This document shows, in pieces, positions 9,300-21,904 of a stretch of 64,000 nucleotides of DNA; the first letter of the stretch is position 1; each line of letters begins with the position of its first letter. The position numbers and the translations under genes were made by a program. Below the pieces are notes generated by a model that made no database searches, was not told where the DNA came from, and saw only the letters and a list, made by a program, of their open reading frames with translations. This DNA is from a phage: sequence record NC_101838.1, one strand, 5' to 3'.

Positions 9300-9688
9300 T
9301 GAAAAATATTTGGGATATTGATATCTTTGAAGCCTCTAAGCTTGACGGTGCTGATGGAGTTATTATGGTGTCTGATGGCAAGGCAACACTAACTTCCGGA
9401 GATATCATCTATGCCTTGGACGAGCTGGCGCTTCTGAAATCTACCGGTAACACTTTAGAGGAGCGTCTTCAAGGCTTCGCCTTCAAAGAAGGTACAAATA
9501 CCGCCATGATGTGCACCACACGGACAGTTCAGGTTGGTAACGGTGTCTATATGATCATTGCGGTGTGTTATAAATTCAGCAACGTCAATAAAGATGATGC
9601 TGACGCTGTCAACGATGTGGTTGTTCTCTTCGTAGGTGACGCTATGGCAGACCTGATGAATGCAGGAGAAGCGGCAAATGAAGACTGA
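9296..9688 (+). CDS. hypothetical protein
   Basis: ORF, overlap-coupled. Confidence 0.5.
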   Translation: MMKNIWDIDIFEASKLDGADGVIMVSDGKATLTSGDIIYALDELALLKSTGNTLEERLQGFAFKEGTNTAMMCTTRTVQVGNGVYMIIAVCYKFSNVNKDDADAVNDVVVLFVGDAMADLMNAGEAANED

Positions 9689-9980
9689 AAACATTACCCC
9701 AGCAGGGTTCTTAAAAGTATACCGTGAACTGCTATATACTACAGAGGACAGTGTTCTAGAGTATCCAGAATATCTTTTGCTGTATAAGTATCTGCAGGAG
9801 GCTGGTGAAAATCTGCCAGTTAGTGCAGAAGGTGGTCCGAACTGGATATACAGCGCATGGAGAAAGGTTGACATTCTCCCAGATCCAGGTAAAGATATGG
9901 TAGTTTGGCAGCTTATCAACAACATTGGGATTCCAATCTTTGATGAAGCTGTTAAAATCTATTTTGAACTTGACGATTAA
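9678..9980 (+). CDS. hypothetical protein
   Basis: ATG after AGGAGAAG RBS (track start 9660). Confidence 0.45.
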   Translation: MKTENITPAGFLKVYRELLYTTEDSVLEYPEYLLLYKYLQEAGENLPVSAEGGPNWIYSAWRKVDILPDPGKDMVVWQLINNIGIPIFDEAVKIYFELDD

Positions 9981-9997
9981 TATCAGGAGACCTTAAG

Positions 9998-10243
9998 ATG
10001 ACTGAAGTAGTTGCTCGCGCAGGACAGAAAGTACGTTGTGTTGAAGTAGGTTTTGGTGGCAAAGGGTGTCAAAACTTGACTCAAGGTAAGGAATACGCTG
10101 TTATTTCTGGTGGTGGCGACGAAAGTATTGTGTTCGAGGGCCACATCCTGGATGCTGAAAACTTTGAAATCTTTGACGACGATGGGGATCCAATCACCTG
10201 CCTGCTGGACGGGAATTGGGGAACTTTCGAAGTGATTGGCTAA
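9998..10243 (+). CDS. hypothetical protein
   Basis: ORF with CAGGAGA RBS. Confidence 0.5.
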   Translation: MTEVVARAGQKVRCVEVGFGGKGCQNLTQGKEYAVISGGGDESIVFEGHILDAENFEIFDDDGDPITCLLDGNWGTFEVIG

Positions 10244-10326
10244 CAAATACCTATTGTAATTTGCAGAAGGGGATGCTAAAATAGTGTCTCCTTCTATGTT
10301 GTTCAAATAAAATCGGAGATTCCATA

Positions 10327-10692
10327 ATGGAACAAATGAACGATCAAGCGTCGGTTGCGATGAACGAGCAAGAACAACCTCAAGAATTTTTCTTAGGGTT
10401 AAGTAAAGATCAAGTGTCTCTTCTACTAGTGCTTTCTTCTTTCATGGGAAGACTTCAGGAGCTCACACAACAACCAGAGGCTGAACAATTATTTCAAGCT
10501 CTGCGTGAAGAAGAAAAATATCGTCGTTTGGACTATGCCTTAGGTTGGGTAGCTCAACAACGAGATATGCTGATGGCCCTCTCTGGGACCACAAGTTTTG
10601 CAATGGGGCTGTTGGCTCAAGTTCAGGACAAATTAATTCAAGCAGGGTTTGCACACACGGCAAACACTAACGAAGAACAAGGAGACAAATAA
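10327..10692 (+). CDS. hypothetical protein
   Basis: ORF with GGAG RBS. Confidence 0.5.
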   Translation: MEQMNDQASVAMNEQEQPQEFFLGLSKDQVSLLLVLSSFMGRLQELTQQPEAEQLFQALREEEKYRRLDYALGWVAQQRDMLMALSGTTSFAMGLLAQVQDKLIQAGFAHTANTNEEQGDK

Positions 10693-11918
10693 TGAGCGTT
10701 ATTCAACAATTCGCTAACCCGATGAATCCGCGTGAAACTGTTTTACTGGCTCACGGCATGATTAAACGTGTCAGCATCAAGCCTATCAAAGGTGCTGATC
10801 CTACAACAGGTATTAAAACCACTGTGTGGCAAGGTAAGAAAATTGAATCCAGCCACACCATCTCTTTACTGATTTCTGAACTGGATTCCTCTGATAACCT
10901 GCTTCAAGGTGGTGAAGAAGTTTGGATCAGCATGGGTGATAAGCTGCTTAAACCTGGTCATCAAGACTCTGTCTCTGTTAAAATTGATGACAAGTGGGAA
11001 ACCGTAACGCCGGGATGGATCGTAAATATCCCTTTGAAGGCAAACGAGCATAACGGTAAGACCTATTACAAAGGCTCACTGGCTAAGATGGTCAAGCTGG
11101 GTGCAGGAGAGGCTCCAGCAGCGACTCAGCAGCAAAAACAGCAACAAGGTGCACAATCACAAGGCCAGAAGCAGAAACCTCAGCAGAATGCCAATCAGGA
11201 CGTTTTACGCATCTATGGCGATGTGACTCAGATTGTTGGCAACGTGGTTACTGTTAATGACCACAAGATTGGCGAAGGTGCTATGGTTGTAACTGATGAG
11301 CAGCTTAAAGACCTGGTGGTAGGTGGTCGTGTTGCAGCCATTGTTGACAAAGACACCGGAAACATTATCAGTGGTTTCAAAGCCTATCCCCCTAAGGCAG
11401 AGAACGGCACTCAAGGCTCCGGTGGCAAGCGTAAATCCTCTTACGACCCTATCGGTGTGGAAACGGGGCATAGCATCAATGCGTTGCAGATCATCCTGGA
11501 TCGCGGGTTTAAGGTAGACGACCCACTGGGCGTGGCTAAAACACTGCACGTAGTCACCATTGAGCTTAAGAAAGAGTATGCTCAAGCCACCAACCGAACT
11601 GAAGATGAAGTAGGTGCCAGTGTCGGTAATGCGGTGTTGAACGCTTGTCGCCGTATTGACAAGAAAACGAAAGTTGATGATTTTGCAGCGGCAATTACTG
11701 CAGAAGCAAAAGATGTCTTGACTAATCTGGCTGAACCGTTGTACGATTGGATCAAGAACGGTGCTGGGTCAACTGACTATCAAGAACCCCAGGCTGCCAA
11801 ACAGGAAGCAGCTCCACAGCAAAACACTGTAGACGCTCCTCCTGTAAATGATGAGGAAGATGACCCAATGGATCAGAATCCAGCACAGTACACCTTTGAT
11901 GATGACATCCCTTTTTAA
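10692..11918 (+). CDS. putative ssDNA-binding protein (SSB-like C-terminal tail)
   Basis: Gln-rich linker and C-terminal DDDIPF identical to the canonical bacterial SSB tail; N-terminal fold not verified. Confidence 0.45.
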   Translation: MSVIQQFANPMNPRETVLLAHGMIKRVSIKPIKGADPTTGIKTTVWQGKKIESSHTISLLISELDSSDNLLQGGEEVWISMGDKLLKPGHQDSVSVKIDDKWETVTPGWIVNIPLKANEHNGKTYYKGSLAKMVKLGAGEAPAATQQQKQQQGAQSQGQKQKPQQNANQDVLRIYGDVTQIVGNVVTVNDHKIGEGAMVVTDEQLKDLVVGGRVAAIVDKDTGNIISGFKAYPPKAENGTQGSGGKRKSSYDPIGVETGHSINALQIILDRGFKVDDPLGVAKTLHVVTIELKKEYAQATNRTEDEVGASVGNAVLNACRRIDKKTKVDDFAAAITAEAKDVLTNLAEPLYDWIKNGAGSTDYQEPQAAKQEAAPQQNTVDAPPVNDEEDDPMDQNPAQYTFDDDIPF

Positions 11919-11934
11919 CATCTAGTTAACATAG

Positions 11935-11961
11935 CCCTGCCCGAAAGGGTGGGGCATTTTT
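11935..11961 (+). terminator. rho-independent terminator
   Basis: Same hairpin as at 1802 (CCCTGCCC-GAAA-GGGTGGGG) followed by T-run. Confidence 0.6.
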
Positions 11962-11980
11962 GTATAAGGAGATCTGAAAA

Positions 11981-12397
11981 ATGACATTAGAAGATATCAT
12001 TGTTAAGCCTGAGAACTATGACCAATACAACCTGTCAACTCAATCTGTAGACCTTGGATGCGCCACGGTCAGTGCGTGGCTGGTTAACGGAAAAGAGCTG
12101 GATAAATGCTTAGAAGCTCACATGTCTATTAACAAGTTTCTGGATGAAAATACTCACTGGCTTGAGGGTGCAGGCGTATATGCTTCATGGTTGGATAGTA
12201 TGGGATTCGACTACCAATCTGAAGAGGGGTGGTGGAGCTATTTAGCTATCTGTCCAGAGACGCTACAATGCTTCATGAAATATTCTGAAGATTTGGAGTA
12301 CCGGGCGGTGGTTGATAGTGCTATTGCCCGTTATAGCCGTAAACCTTTTTCCCACGACATTAAAACTGTGGAAGAATTTGTTGAAGTTTTCTGTTGA
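11981..12397 (+). CDS. hypothetical protein
   Basis: ORF with AAGGAGA RBS. Confidence 0.5.
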   Translation: MTLEDIIVKPENYDQYNLSTQSVDLGCATVSAWLVNGKELDKCLEAHMSINKFLDENTHWLEGAGVYASWLDSMGFDYQSEEGWWSYLAICPETLQCFMKYSEDLEYRAVVDSAIARYSRKPFSHDIKTVEEFVEVFC

Positions 12398-12425
12398 CAC
12401 AGATTGAAAGGTGTGCAATTATAAC
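12394..12425 (+). promoter_or_regulatory. sigma70-like promoter
   Basis: TTGACA with AT-rich -10 (ATTATA). Confidence 0.4.
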
Positions 12426-12493
12426 TTCATAGAACGGGAGGACGTGATGAACGAAGAAAACTGGGATGTATAACTAACAGGAGGCCACTGCCC

Positions 12494-12691
12494 ATGATTT
12501 ATCGAATCCGTGTAAGAGAAGATGCACCAGGCTGTTACTTTGACTGGCGTGGGTGGTGGTTTATCCACCCAATGGATGGACTCACAGATAGAATGCTGGA
12601 TGCTGCCCTTTACACAGATACCGACATAGAATATAATCTCTATCTGAAGGACGGTATAGATAACGGCCTGTTTGAAGCAATTCCTGTGTAA
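12494..12691 (+). CDS. hypothetical protein
   Basis: ORF with CAGGAGG RBS. Confidence 0.45.
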   Translation: MIYRIRVREDAPGCYFDWRGWWFIHPMDGLTDRMLDAALYTDTDIEYNLYLKDGIDNGLFEAIPV

Positions 12692-12759
12692 GAGACTGTG
12701 ATAGCTATGTTTTATGATCTTCCTGTAGCGCCACCACCTGTTGAACCAGGAGAACTAAG

Positions 12760-13185
12760 ATGATCTATGAAATGCCAAAACTGATTCGTGACGATGCCCA
12801 AAACGCTCACACCATTATTATGGGCAAACGCATGGATATTATTTGTCATAAAGATTTCTGGGAAGGAAGTTACTTCACAGAGTATTTTGGTAAACTGGAC
12901 AATGGTCTGCTGATCCAGTTCTACACCGATGCGGAAAACAACATTCCCTGGGAGTTCGAAACTGAAGATGTCCATAAACTTTTCACCTTCCTCGGTATTA
13001 AGGTTAAGGCCAAGTTTGAAGAAGGTGAGTGCGACGATTGTGGATTTTATGAGGTAACAGATTTCTACCTTCCTAGCGGTAAGAACCTTTACTATGAAAG
13101 CCACTTCGGTAACTCCAATATGCCACAGTGCTGGACTGAGTTTTTTGAAATTGCGGAAGAGGAGCTGGCTTACCGTGATTATTGA
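12760..13185 (+). CDS. hypothetical protein
   Basis: ORF with CAGGAGA RBS. Confidence 0.5.
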   Translation: MIYEMPKLIRDDAQNAHTIIMGKRMDIICHKDFWEGSYFTEYFGKLDNGLLIQFYTDAENNIPWEFETEDVHKLFTFLGIKVKAKFEEGECDDCGFYEVTDFYLPSGKNLYYESHFGNSNMPQCWTEFFEIAEEELAYRDY

Positions 13186-13633
13186 TACTGTAGAGGGAGA
13201 TTTAATCTCCCTTTTTAAGAGCGGTGCTGGTCACCTGATCCACGGTTGTAACTGCTTCCACACAATGGGCAAGGGTATAGCAAAACAGATTGCCCGTGAG
13301 TTTCCTCAAGCACTGTCAGCCGACAAAGAGACTAGATACGGTTGCCTAAGTAAACTGGGTGCGTTCTCCCGATGGGAGCACTTATCTCCGGTAGGTATTG
13401 TCTACGGAATCAATCTATATACCCAGTTCTACCCAGGACCTAATGCTGAGTATTTCTCAATCCTGAAAGGCTTTGAGCTAGTCAATGAAGTATTCAGCGG
13501 ATCGACTTTACCATTCTACATCCCTAAGATCGGGTGCGGCATAGGCGGTTTGAAGTGGGAACACGTAGAGGACGTTATTAACCTTGCCACTTTCGACATA
13601 GATATTGTCGTGGTGGAGTACAAAAAGTGTTGA
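13175..13633 (+). CDS. macro-domain protein (ADP-ribose binding/processing-like)
   Basis: Motifs LIHGCNCFHTMGKGIA and IPKIGCGIGG resemble macro-domain signatures; probable GTG start overlapping upstream stop. Confidence 0.5.
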   Translation: MIIDTVEGDLISLFKSGAGHLIHGCNCFHTMGKGIAKQIAREFPQALSADKETRYGCLSKLGAFSRWEHLSPVGIVYGINLYTQFYPGPNAEYFSILKGFELVNEVFSGSTLPFYIPKIGCGIGGLKWEHVEDVINLATFDIDIVVVEYKKC

Positions 13634-13658
13634 CGACCATCTTCTGAGGTGATATAGT
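13630..13658 (+). promoter_or_regulatory. sigma70-like promoter
   Basis: TTGACG-N17-TATAGT. Confidence 0.45.
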
Positions 13659-13687
13659 TTCCACGACAACTAAGAGAGGAGAGCACT

Positions 13688-13858
13688 GTGGAGACTAAAA
13701 TCTTAATTCTTGCTGTGGTAGATACAACCGAAGGAGCTATATTCGAATCTGCAGGAGGGTATTTCTACCTACCATACGGAAAAAGAACTTCCGAGCCAGG
13801 TAAAGATTCAATCCTCAAAGTGTTCCCGTGTGCTTTCTGGCTGGAGATTTTGGTATAA
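13688..13858 (+). CDS. small hypothetical protein (not in ORF track)
   Basis: GTG start after AAGAGAGGAG RBS, 56 codons. Confidence 0.3.
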   Translation: METKILILAVVDTTEGAIFESAGGYFYLPYGKRTSEPGKDSILKVFPCAFWLEILV

Positions 13859-13884
13859 GATTGCAGAGGATTTGGGAGAGAATT

Positions 13885-14079
13885 ATGAGAAACAAGAAAG
13901 AACTTTACTCCGGTGAGTGGATCAACGATCAACAGGTGGGAGAGGTAACCTGCTTCCGATGTTTTACCAGGTACAATCTTAAAACTGCACCAAAAAGTGT
14001 TCCAAAGACTGACGGTTACTACATAAAAGAACCTCATTGCCCAAAATGTAAATGCCGATTGTACTGGAGCAATCTGTAA
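13885..14079 (+). CDS. small zinc-ribbon protein
   Basis: CxxC...CxxC pairs; ATG after GGAGAG RBS. Confidence 0.45.
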   Translation: MRNKKELYSGEWINDQQVGEVTCFRCFTRYNLKTAPKSVPKTDGYYIKEPHCPKCKCRLYWSNL

Positions 14080-14083
14080 GAGG

Positions 14084-14111
14084 TTGACATCTGAAAACTG
14101 CAGTGTATAAT
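14084..14111 (+). promoter_or_regulatory. sigma70 promoter
   Basis: TTGACA-N16-TATAAT. Confidence 0.6.
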
Positions 14112-14142
14112 ATACGCATAAACTAACAGAGGGTGATGTATT

Positions 14143-14334
14143 ATGGTAATTTTTAACCGGGATGGTATCATAGTTAGACAGCACCCGTTCCTTGAATACT
14201 ATCAAATTGAGCAATGGTGCTACGGGGATTGCAGTCACTCCTATGGGCAAAGTTGGGGATATCGTACAGTTTTTGAATCCACAGACCTTGACAAAGTAAA
14301 ACAGAAAGTTTTAGAACTTCTTAACAACAAGTGA
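14143..14334 (+). CDS. hypothetical protein
   Basis: ORF downstream of consensus promoter. Confidence 0.45.
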   Translation: MVIFNRDGIIVRQHPFLEYYQIEQWCYGDCSHSYGQSWGYRTVFESTDLDKVKQKVLELLNNK

Positions 14335-14344
14335 GTATCGTGCC

Positions 14345-14677
14345 ATGGTAACATTGGAAAGACGTAAAGCTATTGCCGCCACACTGGCAGACATCTTTTG
14401 GGATTGTAATTTAAAATCTACCCGAAATTGTGGTGCATCTGTAGATGTATTATTCCCACGGCCTACTATTGTTGCAATGGGCAACCTGCTCGATGTGGTA
14501 TATGGAGCATGGGACAAGGAAGGTGGATTCTATATCTGGCAACCTGACTACGGGACTTGGAAAGAGGTTAGTGGTTCTTCGGACTTCACTCCTGCAGTGG
14601 CTAAAATGGATGGCTGGAAAATCTATGTCGGTAACGACATGGAACTGAAAGGCGAAATTGTTTACTGGTTACCTTAA
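14345..14677 (+). CDS. hypothetical protein
   Basis: ORF. Confidence 0.45.
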   Translation: MVTLERRKAIAATLADIFWDCNLKSTRNCGASVDVLFPRPTIVAMGNLLDVVYGAWDKEGGFYIWQPDYGTWKEVSGSSDFTPAVAKMDGWKIYVGNDMELKGEIVYWLP

Positions 14678-14698
14678 GAAAGTCCAGGAGATAAAGTT

Positions 14699-14944
14699 AT
14701 GAACAAAGGGTGGACATTTGTAGACGGCGTTAAAAACATGCCTCTAGGAAAGTATATTGTAGCCATGGCAGATGAGAATGGCAAGGTTGATTTCGGAGTT
14801 TGCGAGGTTGTTCTTGCAGGATCTGGTGACTATGCTCACAAAACTGGGATAATTAACGGTCATTTCTACTTTGATTACAACCCTGTTGTGGCGTATATGG
14901 CTATGCCAGAGTTCGAGCTCCCAAAGGAAGGTGCAGATGTTTAA
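14699..14944 (+). CDS. hypothetical protein
   Basis: ORF with CAGGAGA RBS. Confidence 0.5.
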   Translation: MNKGWTFVDGVKNMPLGKYIVAMADENGKVDFGVCEVVLAGSGDYAHKTGIINGHFYFDYNPVVAYMAMPEFELPKEGADV

Positions 14945-15134
14945 GCTTAAATCTGCATGGAACATCGCTGTGGGGGACGAGATCCGTATCCCAGGTGGAA
15001 AGACCATTATGAAAATATCTCGTATCGAGTACGAAGGTGATCGTGTATTTCATATCTTTGCAGAAGATGGTCGAGAAATTTATATACAGGCAGGCTCTCA
15101 CATCTATATTCGTAAGAAAGGGGAGGACAAATGA
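14937..15134 (+). CDS. hypothetical protein
   Basis: Internal ATG after AAGGAAGG (track start 14871). Confidence 0.4.
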   Translation: MFKLKSAWNIAVGDEIRIPGGKTIMKISRIEYEGDRVFHIFAEDGREIYIQAGSHIYIRKKGEDK

Positions 15135-15460
15135 CAGAGATCATCATTTCAACTGCAGGGTATGTATTCCTGACAATCATTGCGCTGGCTATTCTGGTGG
15201 CGGTGTATGGATTTGTTATCCTTCCTATCCTTGAGACATTTAGTTTGTGTCGGTGTTGGAGAAAAGCTTACGGTCCACAACCATGGAAGGACTGGCCCCA
15301 CCTGGTGCGCTTAGCGTTCTCTTATGCTTACGATCACTCCAGTAGTGCATGCATAACCGGATACCACGCCCACAACTGGAGCTGGGAAGGGTTGAGGAAA
15401 TGGAATGTTACAAAGACCATACCTCTGCGCATGTACAAACCTAAAAACAAAGACAACTGA
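15131..15460 (+). CDS. membrane protein (N-terminal transmembrane helix)
   Basis: Hydrophobic N-terminus; GGGGAGG RBS. Confidence 0.5.
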   Translation: MTEIIISTAGYVFLTIIALAILVAVYGFVILPILETFSLCRCWRKAYGPQPWKDWPHLVRLAFSYAYDHSSSACITGYHAHNWSWEGLRKWNVTKTIPLRMYKPKNKDN

Positions 15461-15499
15461 TACTTGAAAATTCCTGGCATATCAAGTATAAGGGGGATT

Positions 15500-15960
15500 T
15501 CTAAAATGGATTTCCTCCTTTTGATATTTCACCGGGCTGGATATTTTAAAATTCTTAGAAAATCAGAAAATGGATCGAAAACTAAAATGGATTTTTCAGA
15601 GTAGGCGCGACAAGCTGAATAACTCATCCTATCGTTTGCACCATATTCCAGGCCACCATTATAGATTTCCCACACATGCTAACCTCCCTCTACTAGAACT
15701 TCCTCCACTTACCCTTGACCTTCTATGGTAACAATCTAACCGCTATCTTGAAGTTGCGGTGCAGCTTTCCAGGTACTCGATCTACTTTTCATTTCAGGGC
15801 TTGGATTTTCTGAAAATTTTTCTCGATAAATTTCTCAGTACTCGATCTGTTTTTCGTTTTCTGAATCGGATTTTCTGGAAATCGTTCCGGCTCTCAACCT
15901 GAAATTTTTGGGGACGAAATCGATTTTTCGTTTTCAGAAATGGATTTTTAAAATTTCTAT
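15500..15960. repeat. iteron-like direct repeat cluster (candidate replication origin or packaging-related site)
   Basis: Repeated AAATGGATTT, GGATTTTCTGRAAAT and ACTCGATCT...TTTTCRTTT units in a non-coding region. Confidence 0.55.
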
Positions 15961-16065
15961 ATGGGAATATTTTAGTGGATACTATTTTATAGTAAATTGT
16001 TACGGAGGGTAATTAGCGTGCTAATTAAATTTATTAAATGCGAGGAGTTCTCATTTAGAATCTTG

Positions 16066-16084
16066 AATGATAATCATTCTCGTT
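16066..16084. promoter_or_regulatory. Fur-box-like site
   Basis: GAATGATAATCATTCTC closely matches Fur consensus GATAATGATAATCATTATC. Confidence 0.45.
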
Positions 16085-16197
16085 TGCAGAATAACGGGCA
16101 GGCCCGGTGATTGTCTCCCGGCCCCTGTTGCCCCGGCTTGTTATTATAGTATCACACAGGACAAAGAAAGCAAGGATTTTTTGCATAAATTTTTAAA

Positions 16198-16216
16198 TGA
16201 TAATGATAACCGTTCT
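16198..16216. promoter_or_regulatory. Fur-box-like site (second copy)
   Basis: GATAATGATAACCGTTCTC; about 130 bp downstream of the first. Confidence 0.4.
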
Positions 16217-16473
16217 CATTTTATGCAGCGCTCATCCCTGGTGGTTGTCTCCCCCGTCACCGGTGCCTGCCGTCCTTTCGATAGGTATATTGTGCCACCT
16301 GTCGGGGCCGCTGTCAACACTTTTCAAAAAATTTTTCTAACCTGATGCGCTAACCGCTGCAACCTGGCGGGGCCAGCCTGGCAGGACCTAACTGACCAGG
16401 TGGGAGAGGGTGAAATCTTGCAAACCTGGTAGGCCCATGCTGTAGGGTAAACAATTGAAGAGGAGGTACAAAA

Positions 16474-16611
16474 ATGAAAGGTAATGCTACTCACCTGGGA
16501 AATGTAGTGATTAATGATACAGAAGCGCGGGAACATAAAGAAGAGTACGAAAAAATGGTGGTTAACCTGGCGGGGGGGCGGCAGGTGGATTCTATCATAA
16601 AAATAATTTAA
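16474..16611 (+). CDS. small hypothetical protein (45 aa, not in ORF track)
   Basis: ATG after GAAGAGGAGG RBS. Confidence 0.3.
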   Translation: MKGNATHLGNVVINDTEAREHKEEYEKMVVNLAGGRQVDSIIKII

Positions 16612-16619
16612 AATAATCG

Positions 16620-16649
16620 TTGACAACAAGGTTAATCATGGTATTATTA
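16620..16649 (+). promoter_or_regulatory. sigma70 promoter
   Basis: TTGACA-N17/18-TATTAT. Confidence 0.55.
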
Positions 16650-16697
16650 CCCTACAAGGTGAACAACACCGCACTAACCAGTAAAGAGGATAAATTT

Positions 16698-16895
16698 ATG
16701 AACGCATACGGGATCAAAGTACGTCGCAACACTCGCCAGGTGGTCACCGATCAAATGGTTTGCCAGGTGGACGTAACCATCAACAACGGGCAAGGCCTTT
16801 ATAAATTCCGTCGCGGTCAGAGCTATACCCGGCAACAGCTTAATCGTTGCGCCCTGACAAAAGGACAGATCAACCACTGGTTTAATAAAAAATAA
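16698..16895 (+). CDS. hypothetical small basic protein
   Basis: ATG after AAGAGGA RBS (track start 16620 lies inside the promoter). Confidence 0.5.
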   Translation: MNAYGIKVRRNTRQVVTDQMVCQVDVTINNGQGLYKFRRGQSYTRQQLNRCALTKGQINHWFNKK

Positions 16896-16898
16896 GTA

Positions 16899-16927
16899 TT
16901 GACATATAGTCCGACACCAAATACACT
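16899..16927 (+). promoter_or_regulatory. sigma70-like promoter
   Basis: TTGACA-N17-TACACT. Confidence 0.5.
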
Positions 16928-16959
16928 AAAAGCACAAAAGACACTAAGAGGATAAAATC

Positions 16960-17358
16960 ATGAAAACCACTACCTTTAATTTTGATAATGCGGACTTTTC
17001 TTTTTCTGATGTCAAGAACTGCCGCCGTGATCGTGGATTTTACAAGGCTTATAATCTGGTGGGCCTGGACGATGACAATAATTTGCACGAAGTAGCTGAG
17101 ATCCGGTATTATGCCGCCGTCAGCGGGAACACTCACTACTGCGTGTTTTGGATTCACGACAACAAGAACAATAAGTACGGTTATACTGGCGGCAAGGCGA
17201 GCGGTCACGGTTACGATAAAGCTAACGCAGCACTTGAGAGCGCATTAAATGCTATGGGGATCACTGCCGACGGCTGGATCTACGAAGAAGAGTTTTTGTC
17301 GGCACTTGCTGACCACCTGGGCTATAAAAAACACATTGTAACATGCGCCCACGAATAA
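16960..17358 (+). CDS. hypothetical protein
   Basis: AAGAGGA RBS. Confidence 0.55.
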   Translation: MKTTTFNFDNADFSFSDVKNCRRDRGFYKAYNLVGLDDDNNLHEVAEIRYYAAVSGNTHYCVFWIHDNKNNKYGYTGGKASGHGYDKANAALESALNAMGITADGWIYEEEFLSALADHLGYKKHIVTCAHE

Positions 17359-17364
17359 AAATCA

Positions 17365-17392
17365 TTGACACGCTGCAAAATTTAAGTAAACT
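17365..17392 (+). promoter_or_regulatory. sigma70-like promoter
   Basis: TTGACA-N16-TAAACT. Confidence 0.5.
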
Positions 17393-17440
17393 AGACACAA
17401 AAGGCGGGAATGTTTCCCGCCAGCACAAAGGAAAAAGATC

Positions 17441-17836
17441 ATGAATAAGAACGTACGCCGCATCATGAACGAACTGGCAAACGATGAAAAAATTATTGAT
17501 ATGCATTTGGTCAACATTTGCCGCCGTTGTGTAACATATAACAACCGCGCCGCAAAAGCGCGTGAGATGAACGCAAAAGGCACCTTAAAGCCCTTTCAGG
17601 TGGTTGTAAAATCTATAACTAGCGCAGCAGGCCAGGCGCAGGACCACAACAACGAGAGCGCTAATATTGATCCGTCTTACGTAATGAAACGGATCCGGAC
17701 TTGCAAGAATAAAGAGCAGGTATATAACGTCATAGATTGGCTGGACTCCCTGGGCGATGTGGTTTACAATAGGTTTTCTGCAGCTATCGAGATCCAGCTT
17801 GACAGATTGGACGGGAAAGTACTAAAAACTTATTGA
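17441..17836 (+). CDS. hypothetical protein
   Basis: AAAGGA RBS. Confidence 0.55.
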   Translation: MNKNVRRIMNELANDEKIIDMHLVNICRRCVTYNNRAAKAREMNAKGTLKPFQVVVKSITSAAGQAQDHNNESANIDPSYVMKRIRTCKNKEQVYNVIDWLDSLGDVVYNRFSAAIEIQLDRLDGKVLKTY

Positions 17837-17837
17837 G

Positions 17838-17883
17838 TTTATTTTTAGATGGCCTTGACACCAGGGCCATCAATAAAGTAAAC
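17838..17883 (+). promoter_or_regulatory. repeated palindrome/promoter element, copy 1
   Basis: TTATTTTTAGATGGCCTTGACACCAGGGCCATCAATAAAGTAAAC; palindrome GATGGCC/GGCCATC flanks a TTGACA box. Confidence 0.5.
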
Positions 17884-17916
17884 TAACCACAGTTGAGCGG
17901 AAAAGGAGGCTTAAAG

Positions 17917-18036
17917 ATGAGCACTACACGCCAGCACACAAAGGTAACCATCATCGTTTGCATCATTGGGTACATCCTGGCGCAAATGTTGATGGGTAGC
18001 GCCAACGGTGTCGCAAAATTTTTCTTAAACTTTTAA
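17917..18036 (+). CDS. small membrane peptide (39 aa, not in ORF track)
   Basis: ATG after AAAGGAGG RBS; hydrophobic core. Confidence 0.3.
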   Translation: MSTTRQHTKVTIIVCIIGYILAQMLMGSANGVAKFFLNF

Positions 18037-18064
18037 TTGACAAGCTAACTTAAATCGATATAAT
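18037..18064 (+). promoter_or_regulatory. sigma70 promoter
   Basis: TTGACA-N16-TATAAT. Confidence 0.6.
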
Positions 18065-18115
18065 AAGCACATAAACGGGAAAACTTCCCAGAACACACAA
18101 AAGGAGAAAAACACC

Positions 18116-18457
18116 ATGACTACTATGACCGCCTCAGAAAAAGCTATGCAGATCGCTGAACTGAAAAAACAGATCGCAGACCTTGAGAATAAGATCGATA
18201 ACTTTGAAATCGACGAGGACAAGTACGACGAAAACTATGATGAATGGTTAGACGAGATCTACGGCGAAATTATGATCGGAAACATTTCTTTTCTTCCGTC
18301 GCGTATCCTCAAGGAGCTAGATCCTATCGCTTACCGCTGCGGATTTAGCGACTACATCGACAGCCTGGATATTGAGGACGATGAAGAATACCAGGAATTA
18401 CAGACAGAGTTAGAAGAAGCAAAAGAAGAGCTTGCGGAGCTGGAAGAAAACGAGTAA
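18116..18457 (+). CDS. highly acidic coiled-coil protein
   Basis: AAAGGAGA RBS; Asp/Glu-rich sequence. Confidence 0.55.
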   Translation: MTTMTASEKAMQIAELKKQIADLENKIDNFEIDEDKYDENYDEWLDEIYGEIMIGNISFLPSRILKELDPIAYRCGFSDYIDSLDIEDDEEYQELQTELEEAKEELAELEENE

Positions 18458-18503
18458 GCTTATTTTTAGATGGCCTTGACACCAGGGCCATCAATAAAGT
18501 AAA
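18458..18503 (+). promoter_or_regulatory. repeated palindrome/promoter element, copy 2
   Basis: Same 46-bp element as 17838..17883. Confidence 0.5.
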
Positions 18504-18546
18504 CTTTATACTGTTAACACTGAACTAATGCATAGGAGTTAAAACC

Positions 18547-18792
18547 ATGGCAGCACTAATCACCAAATATTATGCCCCTACCAACACCAAAAGCGCCCGT
18601 ATCATGGTAAAAGGCTTCGGACGTAAAAAGGTGTACACCTGGGATTATGCCTTAGACATGGAAGACAACTACACCAACGCAATGACCGATTTTATTAATG
18701 AACTAAATAAGCAGATCTTGACAAGTTATAAAGTGACCGATATTGCTTATATAGGTGAAGGCGGGATCTGTTTTGTAGGCATTGTGAAATAG
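18547..18792 (+). CDS. hypothetical protein
   Basis: ATAGGAG RBS. Confidence 0.55.
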   Translation: MAALITKYYAPTNTKSARIMVKGFGRKKVYTWDYALDMEDNYTNAMTDFINELNKQILTSYKVTDIAYIGEGGICFVGIVK

Positions 18793-18840
18793 TTATTTTT
18801 TCGGTGGTCCTGGCTGCAGGGCCATCTATAAAGATAATTT
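18793..18840 (+). promoter_or_regulatory. degenerate variant of the palindrome/promoter element
   Basis: TTTTTTCGGTGGTCCTGGCTGCAGGGCCATCTATAAAGATAA. Confidence 0.35.
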
Positions 18841-18866
18841 ATCAACACCATGAAAGGAGAAAGTAC

Positions 18867-19220
18867 ATGATCAGCGGGGCTAGTTTTATTATTGGCGCTA
18901 TTGCTACGGCTTTAATTGTAAACAAGATCCAATCTAAAAACGAAAAAGATAGCAACGCGCTCACAGAATACCCATTTTGGGTATTCAACGACAACGAAGA
19001 CTACATAATCAAGTACAAAGATGAGAGAGGCGACCAGGTAACACCGCGACCGATCCCAGCTTACAAGATGCAGGAAACACTATACCGCCTAAAGGCCGGA
19101 GGCGCAAAGATCGTAGACTTTTGGGGATATGATTGCAAGGATCAGGAGGTCATAAAACGTCGTATCCGGGCGATTCAGGCAAATATTGAAATTAGTAAAG
19201 GGGAAATTTATGAAAATTAA
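18867..19220 (+). CDS. membrane-anchored hypothetical protein
   Basis: ATG after GAAAGGAGA RBS; hydrophobic N-terminus. Confidence 0.5.
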   Translation: MISGASFIIGAIATALIVNKIQSKNEKDSNALTEYPFWVFNDNEDYIIKYKDERGDQVTPRPIPAYKMQETLYRLKAGGAKIVDFWGYDCKDQEVIKRRIRAIQANIEISKGEIYEN

Positions 19221-19407
19221 TTTCGAAAAAATTGTAAAGCGCCCCCACGATTCCGAAGAGCTGCCGGAACGCCGCCAGCGTAACAATAAACTGAATAAAC
19301 CGAAAAGGTTCGGGAAGATCTGGAGGAATCACTATGATCGCAAATTACCGGGCCTGCTTTTGGAACGTGAACGACAGGCGGAACGATACCGCCACAAAGG
19401 CAAATAA
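19210..19407 (+). CDS. small basic protein
   Basis: ATG after AAAGGGG; Arg/Lys-rich. Confidence 0.4.
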   Translation: MKINFEKIVKRPHDSEELPERRQRNNKLNKPKRFGKIWRNHYDRKLPGLLLERERQAERYRHKGK

Positions 19408-19423
19408 CAACCAACGCCCCGCC

Positions 19424-19452
19424 ATTGTGCGGGGCTTTTTATTTCTATCCTA
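19424..19452 (+). terminator. rho-independent terminator
   Basis: CGCCCCGC-loop-GCGGGGC followed by TTTTT. Confidence 0.65.
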
Positions 19453-19577
19453 CGAATAGCGCCCCTGGTTGGCCCCACAAACGCCACAAAAGCCCCTACC
19501 TATGCAATCCCCTTTCTTAGCCTGAAAACATCACCCAGGACCGTTTTATGGTGTTAAAAATATCTTTTATTTAAAGC

Positions 19578-19606
19578 TTGACACCTTGGAATCGCCTGGA
19601 TATACT
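19578..19606 (+). promoter_or_regulatory. sigma70 promoter
   Basis: TTGACA-N17-TATACT. Confidence 0.55.
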
Positions 19607-19641
19607 AACCACATCAAAGCAAGAAGAAAGGAGTAAACGCC

Positions 19642-19902
19642 ATGCGTAAATTAAAAAATTTTGATAAAGTCGATGTTGTCCTGAATAATTTTTACTACTG
19701 CAATAATAAGGCCGTTTGGTGGCGTGATAGTTCCACCGATAAAGTTAAAGCGCGCTTTCTCCAGGGGCACTGGCAAGGCCGCCCAGTGATTAAGATCCGG
19801 GGGCAATTGGTAGCGTTTAAAAATTGCCGCCGTGTTGATGACGTTGAAGAGATTCTAAACATTTTACGCCACAATAATTTAAAAAATAGTGTTGACAAGT
19901 AA
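19642..19902 (+). CDS. hypothetical protein
   Basis: AAAGGAG RBS. Confidence 0.55.
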   Translation: MRKLKNFDKVDVVLNNFYYCNNKAVWWRDSSTDKVKARFLQGHWQGRPVIKIRGQLVAFKNCRRVDDVEEILNILRHNNLKNSVDK

Positions 19903-19920
19903 GCCTCAATAAGTATACTT
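19893..19920 (+). promoter_or_regulatory. sigma70 promoter
   Basis: TTGACA-N16-TATACT. Confidence 0.55.
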
Positions 19921-19976
19921 AAACACACAGGCGGGAAAACTTCCCGCCACTAACAAAGAAAATAGGAGAAAATATC

Positions 19977-20600
19977 ATGACCACCGTTAACATTACCGCA
20001 GGTTACAATTTATCTTTCGACGTGCTGACCGACGAACAAAAAGAAAAAGCCGTTGAAATGGTCCGCGAAAGAGAAGAACACAGCGGGGATAACTTTTTTG
20101 CAGAAAGTGTAATTGAATACTATAAAGAATATGTTTTTCCAGAGTATGGCCTTGAAGATACCGAAGTACATTGGTCAGGCTTTTGGTGCCAGGGTGACGG
20201 CGCGTCAATCAGTGCTGAAAACGTGGATTTAGAAAAATTTTTGCGTAAAGTAAAGGCCCTGACCAAGTTCCGATCAATTCGTCACTTGTTCGGCACAATG
20301 CACGATGGCGAGTTATCAGCCAGTGTTGAGCGTGATCCATATAGCCGCTATAGTCACGAAAACACTGTAAGCGGATACATTGATACCACCTGGCTAGATC
20401 TGACCGCCAAACAAGAAAACAAAGTGGAAGACCTGGAAGAGCTGATCACCGAGACGGTACGGGAGCTATCCCGCAAGGTTTACGTAGACCTGGAGGAGGC
20501 CTATCTTGAACAGTTTACTACCGAAAACCTGATCGGCCTTATTGAGGCCAATGATTGGCGGTTTGATGTGGATGAATATGGCGAGATGACTTTTTCATAA
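19977..20600 (+). CDS. hypothetical acidic protein
   Basis: ATAGGAGA RBS. Confidence 0.55.
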   Translation: MTTVNITAGYNLSFDVLTDEQKEKAVEMVREREEHSGDNFFAESVIEYYKEYVFPEYGLEDTEVHWSGFWCQGDGASISAENVDLEKFLRKVKALTKFRSIRHLFGTMHDGELSASVERDPYSRYSHENTVSGYIDTTWLDLTAKQENKVEDLEELITETVRELSRKVYVDLEEAYLEQFTTENLIGLIEANDWRFDVDEYGEMTFS

Positions 20601-20689
20601 ATAAAGTGTTGCAATAACCTAAAAACCTGCTATATTAAAACTCAAGGGGGCAAGACGTTTGCCCCACACAAAACAAAGAGGAAAACATT

Positions 20690-21070
20690 ATGAAAAACAC
20701 TACCAAGGCTATTGACACCGTTATGTTTAACCTGGTTACATTCCGTGAAGATATGAAAGATCTTCCACGTGAAACAGTGTGCGATCACATTGAAAACTAT
20801 CGCAAACTAATCAAAGAGTTGCCCCTAAAACGTGACCAGTATGCGGCTAACGCTATGCTCAACGCCATGATCAAAAAGATGATCCAGTGTGATTTAACCC
20901 TGGCCTATGACTATGCGGGTGGTCGTTTTGCAGTATACAATCAGCCCGTGCCTGGTATGGGCACCACCGAAGAATTGCACGCGCTCAATCTAAAACAAGA
21001 CGTATGGGATAACATGCCCCGCGTGGTGGTGTGGGCAGAAAGCGGAAAGATTTACGGCGATAATTTTTAA
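20690..21070 (+). CDS. hypothetical protein
   Basis: AAGAGGA RBS. Confidence 0.55.
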   Translation: MKNTTKAIDTVMFNLVTFREDMKDLPRETVCDHIENYRKLIKELPLKRDQYAANAMLNAMIKKMIQCDLTLAYDYAGGRFAVYNQPVPGMGTTEELHALNLKQDVWDNMPRVVVWAESGKIYGDNF

Positions 21071-21079
21071 TCAGGTAAC

Positions 21080-21103
21080 AGGCGGCAAATATGCCGCCTT
21101 ATT
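21080..21103 (+). terminator. weak intrinsic terminator hairpin
   Basis: GGCGGCA-loop-TGCCGCC followed by TTATTGTT. Confidence 0.35.
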
Positions 21104-21134
21104 GTTAAACAGAACTGCAAAAGAGGTACATAGA

Positions 21135-21506
21135 ATGGAATTTATTATTTTGGCTGTAGTAGTTGCCTTGTTCAACGCCTGGATCGCTGGCAAGATGGGT
21201 AGATCCGCCTTTTTATGGTTTATTATATCTATTTTCCTGGGGGTGGTTGCAACTATTGTACTTGTTATCCTTGCAATTGTTGACAAGGGGAATAATAGAA
21301 AGGGTAAAGTATTTTCAGACCTGTACGACGCTCAAACGTTTGTCAACGCCTATTATAGTGATCTTCCAGTCTCCCTACGCTGCAGCCTGGCACAACAAGT
21401 TTTCGATGAGGCTAAAACCAGAGATCAAGCCCATGAGATATGTTTAACTGAGGCGGATCGCCTATTTGAGAGGAATAGAAAATATGTGGGCCAACCGTTT
21501 AAATAA
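21135..21506 (+). CDS. membrane protein (two predicted transmembrane helices)
   Basis: ATG after AAAGAGG RBS; hydrophobic segments. Confidence 0.5.
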   Translation: MEFIILAVVVALFNAWIAGKMGRSAFLWFIISIFLGVVATIVLVILAIVDKGNNRKGKVFSDLYDAQTFVNAYYSDLPVSLRCSLAQQVFDEAKTRDQAHEICLTEADRLFERNRKYVGQPFK

Positions 21507-21705
21507 TGCCACGTTAATTAATCCCTTTAGTGAAGATTTGAAGCCAGCCGCCTGGCGTGATGGATTCAATAACGAACGCTTTATTTTCAAGCCTGATCTT
21601 GAGGAATTTTATAACAATGGATCGAACAACGACAGAGATAATTTTTCTTGTGGTGTGCGTAGTGATGGTACTCCTGGGGGCCATTGTAAACCACGTCACT
21701 ACTAA
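21484..21705 (+). CDS. hypothetical protein
   Basis: ORF overlapping the end of the previous gene. Confidence 0.35.
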   Translation: MWANRLNNATLINPFSEDLKPAAWRDGFNNERFIFKPDLEEFYNNGSNNDRDNFSCGVRSDGTPGGHCKPRHY

Positions 21706-21725
21706 CAGGGGGAAAGGGGGAGACG

Positions 21726-21845
21726 ATGACACCCAAGGATAAGCCCCGCACCGATAAGGCGCGCCGTGTTATGGTATGGCTTGAGATCATCGCCCTTGAA
21801 ATATTGTTAGGGGTAGGGATGTACTTTATCGCTGTAAGTAACTAA
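21726..21845 (+). CDS. small membrane peptide (39 aa, not in ORF track)
   Basis: ATG after AAGGGGGAG RBS; hydrophobic C-terminal half. Confidence 0.3.
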   Translation: MTPKDKPRTDKARRVMVWLEIIALEILLGVGMYFIAVSN

Positions 21846-21849
21846 GAAC

Positions 21850-21878: not shown

Positions 21879-21904
21879 AAAAAAAAAAAAAATTCTTCCG
21901 GGGT

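What the first reader, a model, noticed from the sequence alone, without database searches (positions are those of the whole stretch)
15500..15960. Iteron-like repeat cluster between the replication block and the early cassette block
This roughly 0.5 kb non-coding stretch carries AAATGGATTT (at least 4 copies), GGATTTTCTGRAAAT (2 copies) and ACTCGATCT(N)TTTTCRTTT (3 copies). Its position next to the primase-helicase and polymerase genes fits a replication origin, though a packaging or terminal-repeat function cannot be excluded.
Basis: partly seen in the sequence, partly recalled or inferred. Interest (0 to 1): 0.6.

Follow-up and report, generated by a model that had tools for sequence, protein, structure and literature searches.

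The report
Conserved repeat array in rV5-like phages
The repeats are real and form one half of a 1-kb non-coding DNA control region that rV5-like phages of several genera keep at the same place; it may be a replication origin, and its neighbouring part carries the same palindromic boxes as the stretch of phage T5 where DNA injection pauses.

Summary
The window is an rV5-like Vequintavirus, 99.8% identical to phage CarlMeissner/Bas48. The repeats exist, with corrected counts: AAATGGATTT x3 exact, GGATTTTCTGRAAAT x2, ACTCGATCTNNTTTTCRTTT x2 plus one degenerate copy. They resolve into cluster A (15497-15600) and cluster B, three tandem 65-74-bp units (15771-15965), inside a 1013-bp gene-free gap (15461-16473).

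Among 12 Vequintavirus genomes the clusters are 89-97% identical. The 170-bp spacer between them is 71% identical, non-coding, and fixed in length. The same layout recurs in Seuna-, Mydo-, Henuna- and Certrevirus. A unit profile finds only these three copies in the 137-kb genome.

The stretch is not the terminal repeat (that maps to 27516-27975), not coding, and not a known or stably folded RNA. An origin remains possible: unique ordered repeats sit beside the least stable DNA of the region. But no initiator gene or DnaA/IHF site was found, and neutral-site skew does not support it.

The adjoining Fur-box-like palindromes (16037-16220) match the boxes of the T5 injection-stop region. They lie 8.3% of the genome from the physical end, which raises an entry-checkpoint rival. 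Function is unproven. Origin confidence is 0.35.

The parts
15497..15600 (.). Cluster A: short AT-rich words. GATATTT at 15523 and 15540. AAAATGGAT(TT) at 15503, 15567 and 15584. GGATATTTTAAAATTC at 15538.
   Evidence: Mean pairwise identity is 91% among 12 Vequintavirus genomes, and the cluster stays conserved where the upstream gene differs. Equivalent GATATTT plus AAAATGG/AAATCG word clusters occur in Mydo-, Certre- and Henuna-like phages.
15601..15770 (.). Fast-evolving spacer of constrained length between clusters A and B.
   Evidence: Mean identity is 71%. There is no codon periodicity (57/46/53 changes by phase) and stop codons occur in all frames. The 15480-15980 stretch measures 498-502 bp in every genome, and the small indels in it largely offset one another. 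My reading of the sequences puts the A-to-B gap at about 170-190 bp in other genera.
15771..15835 (+). Cluster B unit 1: GTACTCGATCTACTTTTCATTTCAGGGCTTGGATTTTCTGAAAATTTTTC.
   Evidence: families D1, D2. Unit-profile hit at 15773-15828, E = 3e-6. Mean identity 89%.
15836..15909 (+). Cluster B unit 2: GTACTCGATCTGTTTTTCGTTTTCTGAATCGGATTTTCTGGAAATCG...CTGAAATTTTTGG.
   Evidence: Unit-profile hit at 15838-15891, E = 1e-8. Mean identity 92%.
15910..15965 (+). Cluster B unit 3 (degenerate head): GGACGAAATCGATTTTTCGTTTTCAGAAATGGATTTTTAAAATTTC. It contains a 16-pair A/U-rich hairpin.
   Evidence: Unit-profile hit at 15916-15971, E = 3e-5. Mean identity 97%. Hairpin.
15920..16060 (.). AT-rich (70-80% A+T), least stable duplex of the region, directly after unit 3.
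   Evidence: In the nearest-neighbour stability profile, 15950-15990 lies at about the 99.9th percentile of all 40-bp windows of the 64-kb window.
16037..16121 (+). Adjacent conserved module, outside the finding's coordinates. It holds:
- a weaker box at 16037 (19 bits);
- the Fur-box-like palindrome AATGATAATCATTCTCGTT (16066-16084);
- a promoter-like TTGAAT (16063) - 18 nt - CAGAAT (16087);
- GGGCAGGCCCGGTGATTGTCTCCCGG (16096-16121).
   Evidence: This is the only part conserved at nucleotide level (83-88%) across genera. Mean identity within the genus is 96-97%. Box-matrix scores are 19 and 27 bits. The same box type occurs in the T5 injection-stop region at 9470-9642.
16191..16322 (+). Second, duplicated box unit. 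It holds the box AATGATAACCGTTCTCATT (16202-16220), CCTGGTGGTTGTCTCCC (16237-16253), and a conserved minus-strand promoter-like site TTGACA-17-TGgCACAAT (16317-16289).
   Evidence: (families D7, D10), (26.4 bits; 96% identity).

Best explanation
The repeats are the lineage-specific half of a roughly 1-kb conserved non-coding control region (15461-16473). This region sits at the inner boundary of the terminal early-gene block in Vequintavirinae. The repeats act as double-stranded DNA, as an ordered set of protein-binding sites, not as a gene or an RNA.

My best single reading is that this is the phage's replication initiation region. The proposed steps are:
- Proteins, phage or host and not identified, occupy the short words of cluster A and the three position-specific 65-74-bp units of cluster B.
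- The fixed 170-bp spacer lets the two clusters contact each other.
- The complex destabilises the adjoining AT-rich stretch (15920-16060).
- The gp4-like helicase-primase and the family A polymerase start there, possibly helped by transcription from the conserved promoter-like sites just downstream (16063-16092 on +, 16317-16289 on -).

Shown here: the repeats are real, unique in the genome, non-coding, selectively conserved, fixed in order and spacing across genera, and flanked by the least stable DNA.

Inferred only: protein binding, looping, unwinding, and replication initiation itself.
For: - Uniqueness. A unit profile built from Seuna-, Mydo-, Henuna- and Certrevirus units plus the window finds exactly three hits in the complete 137-kb genome, all in the finding. 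The exact motifs occur nowhere else in the window.
- Selection. Clusters A and B are 89-97% identical among 12 Vequintavirus genomes. The spacer is 71% identical and the 15480-15980 stretch stays 498-502 bp long.
- Deep conservation of architecture. Other genera have three units beginning GKWCTCGATC. Spacing is 74-78 bp then 63-71 bp (window 65 and 74). By my reading of the sequences, cluster A lies about 170-190 bp upstream, and the box module downstream. Unit i of one genus resembles unit i of another more than it resembles its own neighbours.
- A neighbouring subfamily has a different repeat family at the same place, as expected if sites co-evolve with a binding protein.
- The least stable, AT-rich DNA abuts the array.
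- The replisome is T7-like, with a DnaB_C helicase and a family A polymerase (PMC3606486). From my own knowledge, the T7 primary origin likewise lies at the early/middle boundary near one genome end.
- Alternatives were removed: no Rfam family, no stable fold (z from -1.4 to +2.4), no conserved ORF, and not the terminal repeat.
Against: - No recognisable initiator or origin-binding protein is encoded nearby.
- No DnaA-box or IHF consensus lies in the region in any genus.
- The units are three to four times longer than classical iterons, and there are only three.
- GC skew at four-fold degenerate sites goes from +0.19 and +0.06 on the left to -0.17 on the right. That polarity fits a terminus, not an origin, although codon bias of early genes could cause it.
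- The rV5 authors found no skew shift here (PMC3606486).
- A-tract phasing is not consistent across genera.
- The replication genes are 8 kb away, not adjacent.
- The adjoining box module has its counterpart in the T5 injection-stop region. According to Davison (10.1101/866236), that region is not where T5 replication starts.
- No experiment on this region exists in the papers I searched.
Confidence: 0.35

Rival explanations
1. Transcription boundary and operator region. The array and its neighbours separate the middle/replication transcription unit from the early block. The three units, each an A/U-rich hairpin followed by a T-run, would weaken or stop read-through. The clusters would bind a regulator. 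The Fur-box-like palindromes would be operators of a conserved promoter that couples a short transcript, or the first early genes, to a host factor.
For: - The region lies between two co-directional gene blocks of different composition.
- Unit 3 scores as a terminator-like hairpin, and units in other genera end in GTATTTTTTCT after small hairpins.
- The best-conserved element reads as TTGAAT-18-CAGAAT with a palindrome in the spacer.
- A conserved minus-strand TTGACA-17-TGgCACAAT lies at 16317-16289.
- The box matches the core of the Fur consensus as I recall it (AATGATAATCATTATC), and box arrays stand before sigma-70 promoters in unrelated viral contigs such as L026.
Against: - The early block carries many strong sigma-70-type promoters of its own (Gotham annotation; PMC7344957). 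One upstream region therefore cannot control the whole block.
- The hairpins are A/U-rich and too weak for ordinary intrinsic terminators. The overall fold is not better than shuffles.
- Termination does not explain the invariant GKWCTCGATC heads, the fixed number of three units, or the length-constrained spacer.
- No copy of the unit stands before any other gene.
Confidence: 0.25
2. DNA-entry checkpoint like the T5 injection-stop signal. If the DTR end next to the early block enters first, the roughly 11 kb up to this region would come in first. This region would then hold the DNA through host or phage proteins bound to the box array and to clusters A and B. The rest of the genome would follow later.
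For: - A box matrix trained without T5 scores 22 bits or more in T5 positions 4.5-60.6 kb only at 9473, 9577 and 9612. Those sites lie in Repeat Region 3, where the first-step-transfer shear point is put at about 9618 (10.1101/866236).
- The best local matches of the PVP-SE1, Mydo and anhysbys regions to T5 all fall in 9470-9642, with best E = 4e-8.
- The box lies 11.4 kb, or 8.3% of the genome, from the terminal repeat here, and 8.4 kb or 5.9% in KPP-1. The T5 value is 7.9%.
- In both groups a non-coding, repeat-dense region bounds a terminal block of small early genes. In T5, dmp, A1 and A2 are transcribed toward the end, as the early genes are here. Davison makes the point for T5-like phages that this region is better conserved than the neighbouring ORFs.
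- Vequintaviruses Bas48-59 share with T5-like phages a high sensitivity to daunorubicin, which blocks the T5-like phage Bas33 after first-step transfer (PMC13250531).
- Further boxes sit in the terminal repeat itself.
Against: - No homologue of T5 A1, A2 or dmp is found in the genome (tblastn, best E = 0.13).
- The region has no DnaA boxes, which Davison regards as central to the T5 signal.
- Clusters A and B have no T5 counterpart.
- The role of the boxes in T5 is itself unknown.
- I know of no report of two-step transfer in a myovirus, and the papers I searched contain none.
- Which genome end enters first is unknown.
- Box arrays also occur in unrelated phages in promoter-like settings.
Confidence: 0.17
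3. The stretch encodes one or more non-coding RNAs, for example a repeat RNA acting as an antitoxin mimic or decoy.
For: - It has tandem units of 65-74 nt and high nucleotide conservation.
- It lies downstream of a + strand gene with no strong terminator before it.
Against: - No Rfam match in the window or in five related loci.
- Fold energies are not better than shuffles on either strand.
- Palindromes shift position between units and genera instead of covarying.
- No promoter was detected upstream of the units.
Confidence: 0.05
4. Packaging signal or terminal repeat.
For: The finding spans 460 bp and the terminal repeat of the relative Gotham is 459 bp (PMC7471380). This is a coincidence of size only.
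Against: - Gotham's annotated terminal repeat aligns to window 27516-27975, 11.5 kb from the finding.
- In KPP-1 the 514-bp repeat lies about 8 kb from its copy of this region (PMC9862379).
- A separate array of five (ATT)GTGTCA words abuts the repeat boundary at 27459-27515.
Confidence: 0.02
5. Small protein-coding genes or decaying gene remnants, as several GenBank records annotate.
For: Records call ORFs here, for example rV5 ORF199, YN3 646-945 and Bas48_0099/0100. ATG 15506 follows a GGGGGA Shine-Dalgarno-like site.
Against: - The ORF calls disagree between records.
- A T-run indel at about 15595 changes the frame in half of the genomes.
- Every frame has stops in several genomes, and substitutions show no codon periodicity.
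- Conservation is at nucleotide level and highest in the repeats.
Confidence: 0.03

Closest known systems
Phage T5 Repeat Region 3, the untranslated region holding the proposed injection-stop signal (AY587007 9194-10409)
   Same: - Both are non-coding, about 1 kb, dense in direct repeats and palindromes. Davison reports that the T5 region is better conserved than the neighbouring ORFs.
- Both lie at the inner edge of a terminal block of small early genes, about 6-8% of the genome from the physical end.
- Both contain arrays of the same palindromic box, AATGAGAATCATTMTCATT(TGCA).
   Different: - T5 has paired DnaA boxes, 15-bp DRD repeats and a 10-kb terminal repeat that includes the region. 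It also has the trans factors A1 and A2.
- Here there are no DnaA boxes and no A1/A2/dmp homologues. The terminal repeat is 459 bp and lies elsewhere.
- Clusters A and B have no T5 counterpart.
- Two-step transfer has not been shown for this group.
Iteron-type origins (lambda ori; P1 oriR; plasmids pSC101, RK2, R6K)
   Same: Direct repeats in a fixed order next to an AT-rich, easily melted stretch, unique in the replicon.
   Different: - Classical iterons are 17-22 bp in 3-7 or more near-identical copies, bound by an initiator usually encoded beside or around them, often with DnaA and IHF sites.
- Here the units are 63-78 bp and composite. Each has kept its own identity since before the genera split.
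- No initiator gene and no DnaA or IHF site was found.
Phage P4 ori plus crr (two separated clusters of initiator sites)
   Same: Two repeat clusters held at a set distance that could contact each other by looping. This rests on my own knowledge of P4.
   Different: The P4 clusters are 4.5 kb apart, share one 8-bp repeat, and are bound by the alpha primase-helicase. Here clusters A and B are 170 bp apart and differ in sequence.
T7 primary origin (promoters plus an AT-rich region at the early/middle boundary)
   Same: A T7-like replisome, a position near one genome end at the early/middle junction, and an AT-rich segment with promoter-like sites nearby.
   Different: The T7 origin has no repeat array and depends on phage RNA polymerase promoters upstream of the AT-rich DNA. 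Here the best promoter-like site on the + strand points away from the AT-rich stretch.

Membership tests
Iteron-type replication origin | Several near-identical direct repeats of about 17-22 bp at helical spacing | tested here: not met
   There are three composite units of 65-74 bp (63-78 bp in other genera). They are 70-74% identical to each other, and each is closer to its positional counterpart in other genera. Cluster A has short words at 17-81 bp spacing.
Iteron-type replication origin | Adjacent AT-rich unwinding element | tested here: met
   15920-16060 is 70-80% A+T. Its minimum stability is at about the 99.9th percentile of the window.
Iteron-type replication origin | Cognate initiator gene next to or around the repeats | tested here: not met
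   All flanking proteins fall in families of unknown function. No Rep, DnaA-like or origin-binding domain was found.
Iteron-type replication origin | Host factor sites (DnaA boxes, IHF) | tested here: not met
   No TTWTNCACA in the window's region and no conserved one in the other six loci. No WATCARNNNNTTR in any of the seven loci from several genera.
Iteron-type replication origin | Replication starts here (marker frequency, autonomous or phage-dependent replication) | not testable with these tools
   No data were found in the papers searched. Four-fold GC skew changes with the opposite polarity, which is weak evidence.
T7/T4-type transcription-activated origin | Promoter directing transcription into an AT-rich unwinding region, used by a gp4/PolA-type replisome | tested here: inconclusive
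   The replisome type is present. The + strand promoter-like site at 16063-16092 points away from the AT-rich DNA. Conserved minus-strand promoter-like sites (16317-16289; about 16160-16140, the latter read by eye) point toward it. None has been verified.
T5-type injection-stop region | Untranslated, repeat- and palindrome-dense region at the inner edge of the terminal early block, about 8% from the end | tested here: met
   The region lies 11.4 kb, or 8.3%, from the terminal repeat. In KPP-1 the figure is 5.9%. For repeats and conservation.
T5-type injection-stop region | DRE/DRC-type palindromic boxes | tested here: met
   The boxes are met in the adjoining module (16037-16220), not inside the finding's coordinates.
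T5-type injection-stop region | Paired DnaA boxes (IRD'-spacer-IRC') | tested here: not met
T5-type injection-stop region | Pre-early proteins A1 and A2 needed to resume transfer | tested here: not met
   tblastn of all T5 first-step-transfer proteins against the full genome gave a best E of 0.13. Remote or analogous proteins are not excluded.
T5-type injection-stop region | Two-step DNA transfer observed | not testable with these tools
   This needs a shear or entry assay. The only circumstantial evidence is the shared daunorubicin sensitivity (PMC13250531).
Direct terminal repeat / packaging site | Coincides with the physical genome ends | tested here: not met
   Gotham's terminal repeat equals window 27516-27975.
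Known structured RNA family | Match to a covariance model or a fold better than shuffles | tested here: not met

The most novel reading that the evidence does not exclude
rV5-like myoviruses and their relatives deliver their DNA in two steps, like T5. The 1-kb repeat region would be the stop signal. Its Fur-box-like palindromes, shared with the T5 injection-stop region, would be bound by a host protein, possibly Fur. Clusters A and B would be bound by a lineage-specific factor. Together they would hold the genome after the first roughly 8% has entered.
Probability: 0.15. Interest if true: 0.85.

Novelty: new variant of a known kind. Interest (0 to 1): 0.55.

Why it matters
No origin, entry signal or other cis-acting site has been mapped in Vequintavirinae, although these phages are among the most often isolated and most used therapeutic coliphages. 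The rV5 paper marks a 'non-coding' box on its genome map and gives it no function.

This analysis defines the elements of the region and shows that their order and spacing are older than the genera. It removes the terminal-repeat reading. It also gives exact targets for deletion, binding and marker-frequency experiments.

The T5 link may matter beyond this phage group. The same palindromic box marks the place where T5 DNA transfer pauses, a mechanism unsolved since the 1960s. That points to a shared host factor that can be tested directly in both systems.

Tried and rejected
- RNA readings: Rfam on the window and five related loci found nothing. RNA folding of clusters A and B and of the box units on both strands gave z from -1.4 to +2.4.
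- Coding test of the spacer and clusters was negative.
- A-tract helical phasing was weak in the window and PVP-SE1 (p about 0.04) and absent in the other genera, so it was dropped.
- Scans for IHF, DnaA and sigma-70 consensus sites found no conserved site. The only Fis-like hits were the box palindrome itself. I also checked by eye for a sigma-54 promoter in the GGCAGG element; the spacing is wrong.
- Pfam and PHROGs searches of 20 flanking and early-block proteins returned only families of unknown function, apart from a Macro-domain/phosphatase hit and, in PVP-SE1, an HNH endonuclease.
- E. coli genomes gave no match.
- A search for relatives of the upstream protein in IMG/VR returned only two loci.
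- A unit pattern scan of viral contigs found only Vequintavirinae-sized contigs, so the units are restricted to this group.
- I tried to identify the uncultured contigs L018 and L058, which have box arrays beside DnaA boxes. They have no cultured relatives.
- T5 first-step-transfer protein homologues: none.
- Literature searches found no mapped origin, transcriptome or entry data for this group.
- The size match between the finding (460 bp) and Gotham's terminal repeat (459 bp) proved a coincidence.

Full report
**Identity of the window.** The region 15300-16600 is 99.8% identical to Escherichia phage CarlMeissner (Bas48). It is 87-99% identical to more than 110 other Vequintavirus genomes, rV5 included. 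Genes on both sides run on the + strand. A DnaB-type helicase lies at 2599-4677 and a family A polymerase at 4736-7513. About 22 small ORFs follow, up to 15460. Then comes a gene-free gap of 1013 bp (15461-16473). After it lies a block of small genes with strong sigma-70-type promoters. The rV5 paper draws a 'non-coding' box on its genome map and gives no function. Its skew analysis found shifts only where transcription changes direction (PMC3606486).

**The observation.** All three motifs exist, but the counts need correcting.
- AAATGGATTT has three exact copies (15504, 15585, 15938) and none elsewhere in 64 kb.
- GGATTTTCTGRAAAT has two copies.
- ACTCGATCTNNTTTTCRTTT has two copies, with a degenerate third.

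The motifs are pieces of two larger structures. Cluster A (15497-15600) holds GATATTT x2 and AAAATGGAT x3-4. Cluster B (15771-15965) is three tandem composite units with starts 65 and 74 bp apart.

**Conservation within the genus.** I aligned 12 Vequintavirus genomes.

| Segment | Mean pairwise identity |
|---|---|
| Cluster A | 91% |
| Cluster B units 1, 2, 3 | 89%, 92%, 97% |
| Spacer between clusters (170 bp) | 71% |

- The spacer shows no codon periodicity (57/46/53 changes by phase), and stop codons occur in every frame.
- The 15480-15980 stretch stays 498-502 bp long, and its small indels largely offset one another.
- ORF calls in GenBank records disagree with each other. A T-run indel shifts the frame in half of the genomes.

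The stretch is therefore non-coding. Selection acts on the repeat sequences and on the distance between the clusters.

**Conservation between genera.** Blastn across genera retains only 16048-16121, downstream of the finding. Reading the syntenic gaps shows the same layout in PVP-SE1 (Seunavirus), Mydo and KPP-1 (Mydovirus), Hena1 (Henunavirus), PcCB7V (Certrevirus) and several uncultured contigs:
- a GATATTT/AAAATGG-type word cluster;
- a non-conserved gap that I read as about 170-190 bp;
- three units beginning GKWCTCGATC, spaced 74-78 bp and then 63-71 bp;
- an AT-rich stretch;
- one to four palindromic boxes.

Unit i in one genus resembles unit i in another more than it resembles its neighbours, so the triplication predates the genera. 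A profile of these units finds exactly three hits in the complete 137-kb genome, all in the finding. A degenerate unit pattern occurs only in Vequintavirinae-sized viral contigs. Phapecoctavirus has a different repeat family (72 nt x2, 29 nt x3) in the same position.

**What it is not.**
- *Not the terminal repeat.* Gotham, a close relative with an experimentally inferred 459-bp repeat (PMC7471380), has that repeat at its record ends. It aligns to window 27516-27975. In KPP-1 the 514-bp repeat (PMC9862379) lies about 8 kb downstream of its copy of this region.
- *Not a known RNA.* There are no Rfam hits, and folds are no better than shuffles.
- *Not host-derived.* E. coli genomes give no match.

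**The origin reading.**

For it:
- The array is unique, ordered and length-constrained.
- The least stable DNA of the region lies directly after unit 3. The stretch 15950-15990 is at about the 99.9th percentile of the window.
- The replisome is T7-like.
- The position is at the early/middle boundary.

Against it:
- No initiator is recognisable among the neighbours.
- There are no DnaA or IHF sites.
- The units are much longer than iterons.
- A-tract phasing is inconsistent between genera.
- GC skew at four-fold sites changes from +0.19 and +0.06 to -0.17 across the region. That polarity is opposite to an origin's, though codon bias may explain it.

**The neighbouring module and T5.** The element conserved across genera is a 19-bp palindrome, AATGAKAATCATTCTCATT. 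It matches the core of the Fur consensus as I recall it (AATGATAATCATTATC). It is set between TTGAAT and CAGAAT and followed by GGGCAGG.CCGGTGWTTGTCTCC.
- Vequintavirus has two such units (16046-16322).
- A matrix built from these boxes scores 19 bits or more in the 137-kb genome at only five places: 16037, 16066 and 16202 here, and 27831 and 27947 inside the terminal repeat.
- The same boxes occur as arrays in non-coding DNA of many unrelated viral contigs. In two of them they sit beside clusters of DnaA boxes.
- In T5 positions 4.5-60.6 kb, the matrix scores 22 bits or more only at 9473, 9577 and 9612.
- The best local matches of the PVP-SE1, Mydo and anhysbys regions to T5 positions 1-60.6 kb all fall in 9470-9642, up to 29 nt at 97% identity, E = 4e-8.

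This T5 stretch is the DRC/DRE part of Repeat Region 3. It is the untranslated region proposed to hold the injection-stop signal, with the first-step-transfer shear point calculated at about 9618 (10.1101/866236).

Here the box lies 11.4 kb, or 8.3% of the genome, from the terminal repeat. The T5 figure is 7.9%. In both phages the terminal block consists of small early genes. In T5, dmp, A1 and A2 are transcribed toward the end, as the early genes are here. Vequintaviruses share with T5-like phages a strong sensitivity to daunorubicin, which blocks a T5-like phage after first-step transfer (PMC13250531).

Against a T5-type mechanism:
- There are no A1, A2 or dmp homologues.
- There are no DnaA boxes.
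- Clusters A and B have no T5 counterpart.
- The role of the boxes in T5 is itself unknown.

**Verdict.** The finding is a real, selectively maintained, genome-unique array of DNA elements. It forms the lineage-specific half of an ancient non-coding control region. Its function is not established. I rank the readings as follows.

| Reading | Confidence |
|---|---|
| Replication origin | 0.35 |
| Transcription boundary and operator region | 0.25 |
| T5-like DNA-entry checkpoint | 0.17 |
| Non-coding RNA | 0.05 |
| Small genes or gene remnants | 0.03 |
| Packaging signal or terminal repeat | 0.02 |

The first two are not mutually exclusive. The origin idea remains open and is weakened on several defining features. 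The terminal-repeat alternative is refuted.

Noticed in passing
window 16037-16084 and 16196-16220; 27813-27965; T5 AY587007 9468-9640 (L100): Fur-box-like 19-bp palindromes (AATGAKAATCATTCTCATT) occur only in this non-coding region and inside the terminal repeat of the phage. The same box type forms the DRC/DRE palindromes of the T5 injection-stop region. Davison's preprint on that region never mentions Fur.
   Followed up: yes
window 27459-27515: Five copies of (ATT)GTGTC(A/T) within 57 bp end exactly where Gotham's terminal repeat begins (27516). This is a candidate terminase recognition or cutting signal. GTGTC is also a T7-type primase recognition word, by my own recall.
   Followed up: partly
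window 26540-27515: A second gene-free stretch of about 1 kb (37-39% G+C) lies just before the terminal repeat and has its own repeats. Examples are ATGCAAACGAATGGCATGGC at 27162 and 27377, and AAGGCAACTAT / ATAGTTGCC pairs around 27153-27330.
   Followed up: no
L007 2620-2730, L009 2650-2760, L010 2630-2730, L002 3150-3260: Other genera and Phapecoctavirus share a further conserved block downstream of the box: CTTTACAAATCTTTACAAAT ... ACTACCGGCGATCCACCTTCC ... GTTAGCCCCGCCTTTTCGCCGTGGGGTGGCG. Vequintavirus has no obvious copy of it and carries a duplicated box unit at that place. Rfam has no match. It could be an RNA or a protein-binding site.
   Followed up: partly
window 7500-15460 versus 16474-24400: GC skew at four-fold degenerate sites flips sign between two co-directional gene blocks: +0.06 (and +0.19 in the replication genes) against -0.17. 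Whole-sequence AT skew doubles. The cause could be different codon bias, expression or history of the early block.
   Followed up: partly
one search hits MG065646, MG065647, MG065658-MG065674: Sixteen or seventeen records named 'Campylobacter phage' with host C. jejuni are 93-98% identical to E. coli Vequintavirus genomes across this region. They are probably mislabelled or contaminated isolates.
   Followed up: no
CP057073.1: A 137,565-bp 'plasmid' of an E. coli assembly from cattle faeces is 93.6% identical to this region over 99% of the query.
   Followed up: no
window 15592-15597: A T5/T6 run length polymorphism switches the reading frame of the ORF that starts at ATG 15506. This explains why annotation pipelines call ORFs of 32 to about 100 codons here in different records.
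   Followed up: yes
L018 (rc) 4470-4640; L058 4600-4800: Uncultured viral contigs with no cultured relatives carry box arrays flanked by closely spaced DnaA boxes (TGTGGATAA / TTATCCACA). This combination is otherwise seen in the T5 injection-stop region.
   Followed up: partly
PQ002170.1 (L003) 12-140: A Salmonella phage record filed under Demerecviridae starts 69 bp before its copy of the conserved box element and annotates an 'attL' repeat there. The record matches Seunavirus-type sequence, so the taxonomy line and the att label look doubtful.
   Followed up: no
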